A DNA stretch of 686 nt from Escherichia coli (GTDB lineage: Bacteria; Pseudomonadota; Gammaproteobacteria; Enterobacterales; Enterobacteriaceae): the NCBI RefSeq assembly GCF_003334815.1, contig NZ_QOWO01000122.1. The stretch is one strand, 5' to 3'. Numbering within the stretch: the first letter of the stretch is position 1; each line of letters starts with the position of its first letter. Position numbers and translations under genes: made by a program. A model generated the notes under the pieces. That model saw only the letters and a list, made by a program, of their open reading frames with translations. It was not told where the DNA came from and ran no database searches. Shown here one piece after another: positions 1 through 686 of this stretch.

Positions 1-686
1 CTCTCCCGCACCTACAGCAGTTACCGGACAAAAACGCCCGCGCCGGTGGGGAGCCTCGGCCCCGGCTGGAAAATGCCTGCGGATATCCGCTTACAGCTGC
101 GCGATAACACACTGATACTCAGTGATAACGGCGGCAGAAGCCTGTATTTTGAGCACCTGTTTCCCGGTGAGGACGGTTACAGCCGCAGCGAGTCACTGTG
201 GCTGGTGCGCGGCGGCGTGGCGAAACTGGATGAAGGTCACCGGCTGGCCGCACTCTGGCAGGCGCTGCCGGAAGAACTCCGCTTAAGTCCGCATCGTTAT
301 CTGGCGACAAACAGTCCGCAGGGGCCGTGGTGGCTGCTCGGCTGGTGTGAGCGGGTGCCGGAAGCGGATGAGGTGCTGCCTGCGCCGCTGCCGCCGTACC
401 GGGTACTGACCGGGCTGGTGGACCGCTTCGGGCGCACACAGACGTTCCACCGCGAAGCCGCCGGTGAATTCAGCGGCGAAATCACCGGCGTGACGGATGG
501 TGCCGGGCGTCACTTCCGGCTGGTACTGACCACGCAGGCGCAGCGGGCAGAAGAAGCCCGGCAGCAGGCCATTTCCGGCGGGACGGAACCGTCCGCTTTT
601 CCTGATACCCTGCCGGGTTACACCGAATATGGCCGGGACAACGGCATCCGTCTGTCTGCCGTGTGGCTGACGCACGACCCGGAATA
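1..686 (+). CDS. rhsD: Rhs family core protein (YD-repeat polymorphic toxin), internal fragment of the conserved N-terminal region; partial at both ends
   Basis: Seen in sequence: frame +1 is open over the whole window (228 codons, no stop; last complete codon 682-684). About three quarters of the first 40 codons end in G/C, typical of a real GC-rich gene. Recognised from memory, not a database search: blocks such as LSRTYSSYRTKTPAPVG, SRSESLWLVRGG, SPQGPWWLLGW, VLPAPLPPYRVLTG, GEITGVTDGAGRHFRLVLTTQAQRAEEAR and IRLSAVWLTHDPEY match the N-terminal conserved region of E. coli-type Rhs core proteins, about residues 74-301 of a roughly 1400-aa protein by my estimate. The true start would then be about 220 bp upstream and the stop more than 3 kb downstream. 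The symbol is tentative: residues look closer to what I recall of the RhsD/RhsE subfamily than to RhsA/B/C, but I cannot verify this without an alignment. Family-level confidence is high; paralog-level confidence is about 0.5. Confidence 0.9.
414..421 (+). other. Chi octamer (5'-GCTGGTGG-3'), the RecBCD recombination hotspot motif of E. coli and relatives
   Basis: Seen in sequence: exact GCTGGTGG at 414-421 on the + strand, embedded in codons G-L-V-D (ggG CTG GTG Gac). Established knowledge: this octamer is the Chi site recognised by E. coli RecBCD. Its relevance depends on the host being E. coli-like and on orientation relative to replication, which cannot be determined from this window. The confidence value is for functional relevance, not for the sequence match. 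Confidence 0.4.

What the first reader, a model, noticed from the sequence alone, without database searches (positions are those of the whole stretch)
1..686. Window sits inside the conserved N-terminal region of an Rhs polymorphic-toxin core gene
Frame +1 translates without a stop across all 686 bp and gives a sequence I recognise as the N-terminal conserved part of an Rhs core protein, upstream of the YD-repeat shell. By established knowledge, Rhs proteins are polymorphic toxins used in interbacterial competition, often T6SS-associated via an N-terminal PAAR-like segment. The conserved core ends at a PxxxxDPxGL motif, followed by a highly variable C-terminal toxin domain and a cognate immunity gene. 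The window contains only conserved core, so it cannot itself reveal a new toxin or immunity pair, but it marks a locus whose downstream end is where novelty would be found.
Basis: partly seen in the sequence, partly recalled or inferred. Interest (0 to 1): 0.45.

Follow-up and report, generated by a model that had tools for sequence, protein, structure and literature searches.

The report
Ordinary piece of E. coli rhsC
The window is an internal piece of the long-known E. coli Rhs toxin gene rhsC (identical to the K-12 sequence), encoding part of the lid and the first wall segments of the protein cage that holds the toxin, so it is ordinary and already explained.

Summary
Frame +1 is open over all 228 codons, while the other five frames carry 3-10 stops. 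Composition alone would leave frame +1 open about 0.2% of the time.

The 686 bases are 100% identical to nt 220-905 of E. coli K-12 rhsC (codons 74-301). They differ at 2 bases from K-12 rhsA and rhsB. They occur in 3,886 of 5,426 complete E. coli genomes, with a median of 3 copies.

The interpretation as conserved Rhs core is right. The start lies 219 nt upstream. PISNIDPLGL (a PxxxxDPxGL motif) lies 2.8 kb downstream, followed by a 150-aa AT-rich tip and the small ORF ybfB.

One correction is needed. The window is not upstream of the shell. It encodes the last 50 residues of the N-terminal plug (DUF6531) and the first barrel hairpins. This rests on homology to Tse5 and on an AlphaFold model that superimposes on solved Rhs cocoons.

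The N-terminus is only a single-repeat, PAAR-like stub. None of the four loci examined has a vgrG neighbour, and K-12 has no T6SS.

The identical window precedes at least four different tips at three chromosomal sites, so it says nothing about the toxin. Already known; low interest.

The parts
1..686 (+). Internal segment of an rhs core gene, identical to E. coli K-12 rhsC nt 220-905. It covers codons 74-301 plus the first 2 nt of codon 302, in frame +1.
   Evidence: 100% identity to rhsC. The translation is found at RhsC residues 74-301. NF041261 RHS_core E=3.3e-137. Full-length RhsC scores 2683.5 bits against the curated cut-off of 2000.
1..150 (+). Last 50 residues (RhsC 74-123) of the N-terminal plug or 'cork' domain (DUF6531), which closes one end of the Rhs cocoon. 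It includes the invariant residues R76, Y78, S80, G90, G93 and W96.
   Evidence: Pfam DUF6531 on window aa 1-50, model positions 28-74 of 74, and on RhsC 46-123 in the full protein. Tse5 plug = residues 48-124 = DUF6531 (PMC10684867). RhsC 48-185 aligns to Tse5 shell chain residues 1-143. Conservation from alignment A1.
151..686 (+). First beta-hairpins of the Rhs barrel (RhsC 124-301). These are degenerate YD-type repeats that fall below Pfam RHS_repeat detection.
   Evidence: AlphaFold2 model of RhsC 1-450 has mean pLDDT 85.4 and pTM 0.85, with strands through 131-251 and 289-298. It superimposes on the Tse5 shell 8cp6_B (TMq 0.69, 410 columns, E=9.6e-32) and on 7q97, 8qja-d and 7pq5.
421..435 (+). 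DRFGR (RhsC 214-218): a DxxGR hairpin-turn motif of a YD-type repeat.
   Evidence: Motif scan. The DxxGR turn is described for Tse5. G217 is invariant in A1.
496..510 (+). DGAGR (RhsC 239-243): a DxxGR hairpin-turn motif. Base 505 (G) distinguishes this sequence from K-12 rhsA and rhsB, which have T, giving G242W.
   Evidence: D239 and R243 are invariant and G242 is at least 90% conserved in A1.
535..636 (+). Subfamily-specific excursion: a predicted helix (RhsC 252-266, QAQRAEEARQQAISG) plus a linker (267-285). It contains an indel relative to RhsD and lies within the RhsC 186-285 stretch that did not align to Tse5.
   Evidence: DSSP helix 252-266. RhsC/RhsD alignment shows a 5-aa indel here. 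The gap between the two aligned stretches versus Tse5 covers RhsC 186-285, about 55 aa longer than the Tse5 counterpart.
342..342 (+). Synonymous base (GGC; GGT in K-12 rhsA and rhsB). It is the second of the two positions that separate the window from those paralogues.

Best explanation
The window is an internal part of a chromosomal E. coli Rhs polymorphic-toxin gene of the RhsA/B/C(/F) subfamily, identical to K-12 rhsC.

The encoded 228 residues are structural and are not the toxin. The first 50 complete the N-terminal plug (DUF6531). The remaining 178 form the first turns of the beta-sheet cocoon, which, by analogy with solved Rhs effectors, encloses the C-terminal toxin.

Inferred from homologues, the protein autocleaves at two sites. 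The first is H47|P48, 26 residues upstream of the window. The second lies after the PxxxxDPxGL aspartyl-protease motif, 2.8 kb downstream. The three pieces stay together, and the toxin is released in a target cell.

At the DNA level, this 65% GC stretch is part of a roughly 3.7-kb repeat that is 96-99% identical between rhsA, rhsB and rhsC. That repeat gave Rhs its name, because it serves as a substrate for RecA-dependent rearrangement. It also allows C-terminal tips and immunity genes to be swapped behind an unchanged core.
For: Identity and position:
- The window is nt 220-905 of rhsC.
- Family scores: (2683.5 bits against a cut-off of 2000).

Domain map of the full gene:
- DUF6531 at 46-123, RHS_repeat hits from 361 to 892, PF03527 at 1143-1179.
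- TIGR03696 at 1170-1247.
- PISNIDPLGL at 1238-1247.

Structure:
- Tse5 shell chain residue 1 aligns with RhsC P48, E=1e-125.
- Cleavage is at K47|P48 in Tse5 and the plug is residues 48-124.
- P. protegens RhsA is cleaved at H304|P305, which aligns with RhsC H47-P48.
- AF2 model and fold matches.

Repeat and tip swapping:
- 2 mismatches to rhsA and rhsB over the window; protein identity collapses only after residue 1247.
- At the kdp site, strain E2865 carries the K-12 orphan ybfO tip plus ybfC (99.2% over 506 aa).
- At the yibF site, strain 503025 carries the RhsB tip plus yhhH (100%).
- At the rpmE site, strain 602354 carries another tip.
- GC is 0.61-0.68 in the core against 0.34-0.48 in the flanks and tip.

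History: rearrangement hot spot between rhsA and rhsB (PMC2935791).
Against: - Nothing contradicts the identification.
- The mechanistic steps (autocleavage, encapsulation, delivery) are inferred from Tse5, P. protegens RhsA and P. laumondii Rhs1. They have not been shown for RhsC.
- The delivery route is unclear. K-12 and B strains have no T6SS (PMC6730261).
- None of the four loci examined has a neighbouring vgrG or eag gene.
- An in-silico study of EHEC states it is unclear which VgrG, if any, carries the RhsA/B/C clade (PMC7216683).
- The source genome of the window is unknown, so the locus and tip cannot be assigned.
Confidence: 0.97

Rival explanations
1. The window comes from a non-functional rhs remnant (a pseudogene or dissociated core fragment), not from an intact toxin gene.
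For: Rhs loci are littered with partial core fragments: K-12 ybfO, yibJ, ylbH and rhsE.
Against: - The orphan fragments seen here lack the N-terminus and keep only 3' core (notes 'missing N-terminus'). The window is 5' core.
- The frame is intact over 228 codons.
- Every annotated feature under the 25 best matches is a full rhs CDS.
Confidence: 0.02
2. The open frame is a by-product of high GC content, and the real feature lies on the other strand, for example the 130-aa antisense ORF at 283-675.
For: GC is 64.7%. Antisense frames have only 3-7 stops and yield ORFs of 106 and 130 aa.
Against: - Only frame +1 is fully open.
- It matches a curated family at E=3e-137 and solved structures.
- No antisense gene is annotated in RefSeq K-12.
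- There is no Rfam match and no promoter-like site.
Confidence: 0.005
3. The gene is a T6SS-independent Rhs. In strains such as K-12, RhsA/B/C proteins act by another route or have another role, and the PAAR-like stub is vestigial.
For: - K-12 keeps three intact 4.1-4.2 kb genes whose cores are 96-99% identical, without any T6SS.
- There is no vgrG or eag neighbour.
- The N-terminus matches only the last PAAR repeat, at 16.5 bits against a cut-off of 124.
Against: - The closest solved homologue, Tse5, has the same 47-residue PAAR-like N-terminal fragment, and the authors describe it as necessary for T6SS secretion.
- A review reports that Rhs-CT5 (Z5014, at the EHEC rhsA locus) mediates interbacterial antagonism (Ma et al. 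2017b, cited in PMC6730261).
- Most E. coli strains do carry T6SSs.
- High identity between copies can be maintained by gene conversion.
Confidence: 0.07

Closest known systems
E. coli K-12 RhsC (b0700, NP_415229.1 / WP_000015200.1)
   Same: The window is 100% identical in DNA over all 686 bases. It corresponds to nt 220-905, residues 74-301.
   Different: Nothing differs within the window. The source strain and locus are unknown. The identical 686 nt also occur at the yibF (rhsA) site and the rpmE site in other strains, with other tips.
E. coli K-12 RhsA and RhsB
   Same: 99.7% DNA identity over the window. The architecture is the same, and PxxxxDPxGL sits at the same residue, 1238.
   Different: Two bases differ: 342 is synonymous, and 505 gives G242W in the DGAGR turn. 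The tips (130 and 164 aa) and the immunity genes (yibA, yhhH) are unrelated.
E. coli K-12 RhsD (RhsD/E subfamily)
   Same: Same gene organisation. The first 73 aa are nearly identical.
   Different: 76% DNA identity and about 66% ungapped aa identity over the window. There is an indel in the 267-285 linker.
Pseudomonas aeruginosa Tse5 (PDB 8cp6), T6SS Rhs pore-forming effector
   Same: - Closest solved structure: E=1e-125 to full RhsC.
- Same 47-residue PAAR-like N-terminal fragment.
- The cleavage site X47|P48 aligns.
- The DUF6531 plug is followed directly by the YD barrel.
- The AF2 model of RhsC 1-450 superimposes with TMq 0.69.
   Different: - About 31% identity in the structural alignment.
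- RhsC 186-285 has no aligned Tse5 counterpart and is about 55 aa longer.
- The toxin tip is different.
- RhsC cleavage and secretion are untested.
P. protegens RhsA (7q97) and P. laumondii Rhs1 (7pq5), class I prePAAR Rhs effectors
   Same: Cocoon plus N-terminal cork/plug and C-terminal aspartyl-protease plug. The H|P N-terminal cleavage site of RhsA aligns with RhsC H47-P48.
   Different: They carry N-terminal regions of about 290-300 residues with prePAAR, transmembrane helices and a full PAAR domain, and they need Eag chaperones. RhsC has only 47 residues before the plug.
Tc-toxin BC components and teneurins (YD-shell proteins)
   Same: The same beta-spiral YD cocoon fold is detectable by Foldseek (E of about 1e-7 to 1e-10).
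   Different: They have different N-terminal closures (beta-propeller; FN-plug) and poor superposition (TMq 0.17-0.38). See PMC8765631.

Membership tests
RHS element core protein (NCBIfam NF041261; E. coli RhsA/B/C/F subfamily) | Full-length match to the curated equivalog model above its cut-off | tested here: met
   The K-12 gene that contains the window scores 2683.5 bits against a cut-off of 2000, covering profile 1-1261. The window alone scores 459.2 bits, collinear with profile 74-309; a fragment cannot reach the whole-protein cut-off.
RHS element core protein (NCBIfam NF041261; E. coli RhsA/B/C/F subfamily) | Near-identity to named rhs genes of E. coli | tested here: met
   100% to rhsC, 99.7% to rhsA and rhsB, 76% to rhsD.
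RHS element core protein (NCBIfam NF041261; E. coli RhsA/B/C/F subfamily) | GC-rich core (about 62%) in an approximately 51% GC genome, with an AT-rich tip | tested here: met
   The window is 64.7% GC. The core is 0.57-0.68, and the tip, immunity gene and flanks are 0.34-0.48.
Rhs/YD-repeat polymorphic toxins | Multiple YD/Rhs repeats forming the shell | tested here: met
   In the full gene: 10 Pfam RHS_repeat hits at E<=0.001 between residues 361 and 892, and TIGR01643. Within the window there is no RHS_repeat hit, only three DxxGR turns. The predicted beta-hairpins superimpose on solved shells.
Rhs/YD-repeat polymorphic toxins | Core ends with the Rhs-associated core / aspartyl-protease motif, PxxxxDPxGL | tested here: met
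   PF03527 at 1143-1179, TIGR03696 at 1170-1247, and DPIGL...PISNIDPLGL at 1238-1247. This lies outside the window and was tested on the K-12 gene.
Rhs/YD-repeat polymorphic toxins | Variable C-terminal tip followed by a small immunity ORF | tested here: met
   Identity between RhsA, RhsB and RhsC drops from at least 0.86 to 0.18 or less after residue 1250. ybfB, yibA and yhhH follow immediately. Toxin and immunity activities of the RhsC tip and YbfB were not tested, and no family hits were found.
T6SS Rhs effectors with N-terminal plug | DUF6531 plug/cork domain directly before the barrel | tested here: met
   DUF6531 at RhsC 46-123, E=2.2e-17. The window holds model positions 28-74. It is equated with the plug in PMC10684867.
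PAAR-Rhs T6SS effectors | A complete PAAR domain at the N-terminus | tested here: not met
   No Pfam PAAR hit at E<=10. NF033420 scores 16.5 bits against a cut-off of 124, covering only profile 68-94 of 94. The result is a single PAAR-like repeat, as in Tse5-NT.
PAAR-Rhs T6SS effectors | Genetic linkage to vgrG, eag or a T6SS cluster | tested here: not met
   No such neighbour within 8-9 kb at four loci. The literature reports the same for the EHEC rhsA/B/C clade. K-12 lacks a T6SS.
PAAR-Rhs T6SS effectors | T6SS-dependent secretion and killing | not testable with these tools
   This needs competition assays. It is reported only second-hand, for Rhs-CT5/Z5014.

The most novel reading that the evidence does not exclude
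The window itself is fully explained. The most novel reading still open concerns what it is attached to. Either the unknown source genome carries an undescribed tip and immunity pair behind this core, or the RhsA/B/C subfamily has a delivery route or role that does not depend on a T6SS. The second idea draws on its 47-residue single-repeat PAAR-like stub, its lack of a vgrG neighbour, and its retention intact in T6SS-less K-12. The window's sequence neither supports nor tests either idea.
Probability: 0.05. Interest if true: 0.4.

Novelty: already known. Interest (0 to 1): 0.05.

Why it matters
It matters little. The sequence is a textbook E. coli repeat, described from 1984 onward, and it is present in about 72% of complete E. 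coli genomes.

Two points are useful. First, this stretch is not 'pre-shell' sequence; it encodes the plug and the first cocoon turns. Second, a core window has no power to predict the toxin tip, because the identical 686 bases sit in front of at least four different tips at three loci. A scan that flags such windows will re-find the same repeat thousands of times.

Tried and rejected
- Rfam at a permissive E-value found no RNA family on either strand.
- The promoter scan found nothing. The terminator scan gave two overlapping weak 5-bp hairpins at 577-594, inside the CDS. I treat these as chance.
- The repeat search found only one 24-nt pair at 75% identity (402-425 and 522-545) and no inverted repeats. 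I treat this as chance or codon-level similarity between hairpins.
- PADLOC gave no defence-system match for the window protein, the RhsC tip or YbfB.
- The antisense ORFs of 106 and 130 aa were rejected as GC-driven artefacts.
- Plasmid origin was rejected. The 8 'plasmid' records are either 0.28-4.8 Mb replicons or contigs of 5-15 kb. All 8 are non-mobilizable and are probably chromosomal sequence.
- A literature search for RhsC/YbfB function returned only incidental mentions.
- Two literature searches failed for lack of capacity.

Full report
**Observation**

The window reads through in frame +1 for all 228 codons. The other five frames contain 3-10 stops each. With 64.7% GC, the per-codon stop probability is 0.027, so a 228-codon open frame is expected about 0.2% of the time. 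Frame +1 was open in 7 of 5,000 shuffles. GC at codon positions 1, 2 and 3 is 0.69, 0.52 and 0.73. The open frame is therefore real and is more than chance would give.

**Identity**

Megablast against 5,426 complete E. coli genomes found the window in 3,886 of them, at a median of 3 copies per genome. The best copy is at least 99% identical in 3,293 records, and the features underneath are annotated rhsC, rhsB or 'RHS element core protein'.

In E. coli K-12 MG1655 the 100% match lies at nt 220-905 of rhsC (b0700). The window therefore covers codons 74-301 plus two bases, in the gene's own frame. K-12 rhsA and rhsB differ at two bases: 342, which is synonymous, and 505, which gives G242W. rhsD is 76% identical.

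The translation matches NCBIfam NF041261 'RHS element core protein' at E=3.3e-137, collinear with profile positions 74-309. The full K-12 protein scores 2683.5 bits against the curated cut-off of 2000.

- The start codon is 219 nt upstream of the window, and the protein begins MSGKPAARQGD.
- PxxxxDPxGL occurs once, as PISNIDPLGL at residues 1238-1247, 2.8 kb beyond the window. It lies within PF03527 and TIGR03696.
- After that motif, identity between RhsA, RhsB and RhsC collapses from at least 0.86 to 0.18 or less.
- GC falls from about 0.62 to about 0.34 at the same point.
- A 108-aa ORF, ybfB, follows at once. After it come an orphan core fragment (ybfO) with ybfC, and then ISAs1/H-repeat remnants.

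All of this is the classical Rhs element layout (PMC2935791; PMC3150448).

**Where the window sits in the protein**

- Pfam places DUF6531 at RhsC 46-123. The first significant RHS_repeat hit is at residue 361, with a weak one at 318. The window alone hits only the C-terminal part of DUF6531.
- The closest solved structure is P. aeruginosa Tse5 (E=1e-125). The first residue of its shell chain aligns with RhsC P48.
- The Tse5 paper shows cleavage at K47|P48. It shows a 47-residue PAAR-like N-terminal fragment and an N-terminal plug at residues 48-124, which it equates with DUF6531. A barrel of 40 hairpins with DxxGR turns follows directly (PMC10684867).
- P. protegens RhsA is cleaved at H304|P305 (PMC8765631). 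That site aligns with RhsC H47-P48.

I then collected diverse relatives of RhsC 1-450. There were 2,367 cluster representatives at E<=1e-10. I aligned 22 of them, at 33-76% identity, and predicted the structure. The model has mean pLDDT 85.4 and pTM 0.85. It is beta-hairpins from residue 55 onward, with one longer helix at 252-266.

The model superimposes on the Tse5 shell chain over 410 columns (TMq 0.69, rmsd 4.0 A, E=9.6e-32). It also superimposes on six other T6SS Rhs cocoon structures at TMq of about 0.6.

The window therefore encodes two things:
- The last 50 residues of the plug (nt 1-150).
- The first barrel hairpins (nt 151-686), including DxxGR turns at nt 421-435 and 496-510.

There is also a DNGGR at nt 124-138, within the plug.

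RhsC 186-285 did not align to Tse5 and is about 55 residues longer than its counterpart. That stretch contains the predicted helix and a linker, and the linker carries an indel relative to RhsD.

**Mechanism**

The following is shown here: the sequence identity, the domain map, the predicted fold and the modular tip replacement.

The following is inferred from homologues. The protein folds into a cocoon closed by the plug and by the C-terminal aspartyl-protease plug. It cleaves itself at H47|P48 and after the DPxGL motif. It keeps the toxin inside until delivery.

Delivery is the weakest step, for these reasons:
- The N-terminal 47 residues match only the last PAAR repeat, at 16.5 bits against a cut-off of 124, and there is no Pfam PAAR hit.
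- None of the four loci I inspected has a vgrG or eag neighbour.
- K-12 and B strains lack a T6SS (PMC6730261).
- An in-silico study of EHEC states it is unclear which VgrG, if any, carries the RhsA/B/C clade (PMC7216683).
- On the other side, the same-sized Tse5 N-terminal fragment is described as necessary for T6SS secretion. A review cites T6SS-linked antagonism by Rhs-CT5 (Z5014, at the EHEC rhsA locus).

**The window cannot predict the toxin**

The identical 686 bases occur at three chromosomal sites with four different arrangements:
- At the kdp/ybfA site in K-12, with the RhsC tip and ybfB.
- At the same site in strain E2865. Here the gene carries the tip that is an orphan (ybfO) in K-12, at 99.2% identity over 506 aa, followed by ybfC. 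This is a clean example of C-terminal displacement.
- At the yibF (rhsA) site in strain 503025, with the RhsB tip (100%) and yhhH, followed by yibA.
- At the rpmE site in strain 602354, with another tip and 'dsORF-f3'.

**Other strand and non-coding features**

Nothing was found: no Rfam match, no promoter-like site, one weak intragenic hairpin and no meaningful repeats. The antisense ORFs are what a 65% GC coding sequence produces.

**Verdict**

The feature is already known and is among the most frequently re-sequenced repeats of E. coli. Interest is low.

Noticed in passing
window 505 (RhsC G242); L002 and L003 (K-12 rhsA, rhsB): K-12 RhsA and RhsB carry Trp instead of Gly at residue 242, the glycine of a DxxGR hairpin turn. 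That glycine is at least 90% conserved among 23 diverse relatives. The window has the conserved Gly. It is odd that two of the three K-12 paralogues share this substitution; gene conversion between rhsA and rhsB may explain it.
   Followed up: partly
L006 7782-12547 (E. coli E2865, kdp/ybfA site) versus L001 13332-15418: The tip that is an unexpressed orphan (ybfO) with ybfC in K-12 is fused to the full-length rhs gene in E2865, at 99.2% over 506 aa. The RhsC tip and ybfB are absent there. The boundary motif is PVQYIDSMGL (DSMGL, not DPxGL), so the strict PxxxxDPxGL pattern misses it.
   Followed up: partly
L007 7782-13319 (E. coli 503025, yibF site): The gene at the rhsA chromosomal site carries the RhsB tip (100%) and yhhH. 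It is still followed by yibA, the gene that follows RhsA in K-12. This looks like a displaced-tip arrangement that retains the earlier putative immunity gene.
   Followed up: partly
L001 12523-13301 (RhsC tip residues 1248-1397 and ybfB): The 150-aa cysteine-containing RhsC tip and the 108-aa YbfB have no hit in Pfam (tip only), NCBIfam or PADLOC. A literature search found no functional study. This is an uncharacterised putative toxin/immunity pair in K-12.
   Followed up: partly
plasmid collection hits H26-H33: Eight 'plasmid' records contain the window. Five are 0.28-4.8 Mb replicons and three are contigs of 5-15 kb. All 8 are non-mobilizable, and one 5-kb record is labelled Klebsiella oxytoca. 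They are probably mis-assigned chromosomal sequence or repeat-induced assembly fragments.
   Followed up: no
window 535-636 (RhsC 252-285): A predicted 15-residue helix (QAQRAEEARQQAISG) and a Pro/Gly-rich linker interrupt the hairpin series. The segment lies in the stretch that did not align to Tse5, and it holds an indel relative to RhsD. It may be a subfamily-specific surface element; its function is unknown.
   Followed up: partly
window 577-594: A short GC-rich hairpin followed by a T-rich run scores as terminator-like, inside the coding frame. The stem is only 5 bp, and shuffles give a mean of 0.3 sites. It is probably chance.
   Followed up: no
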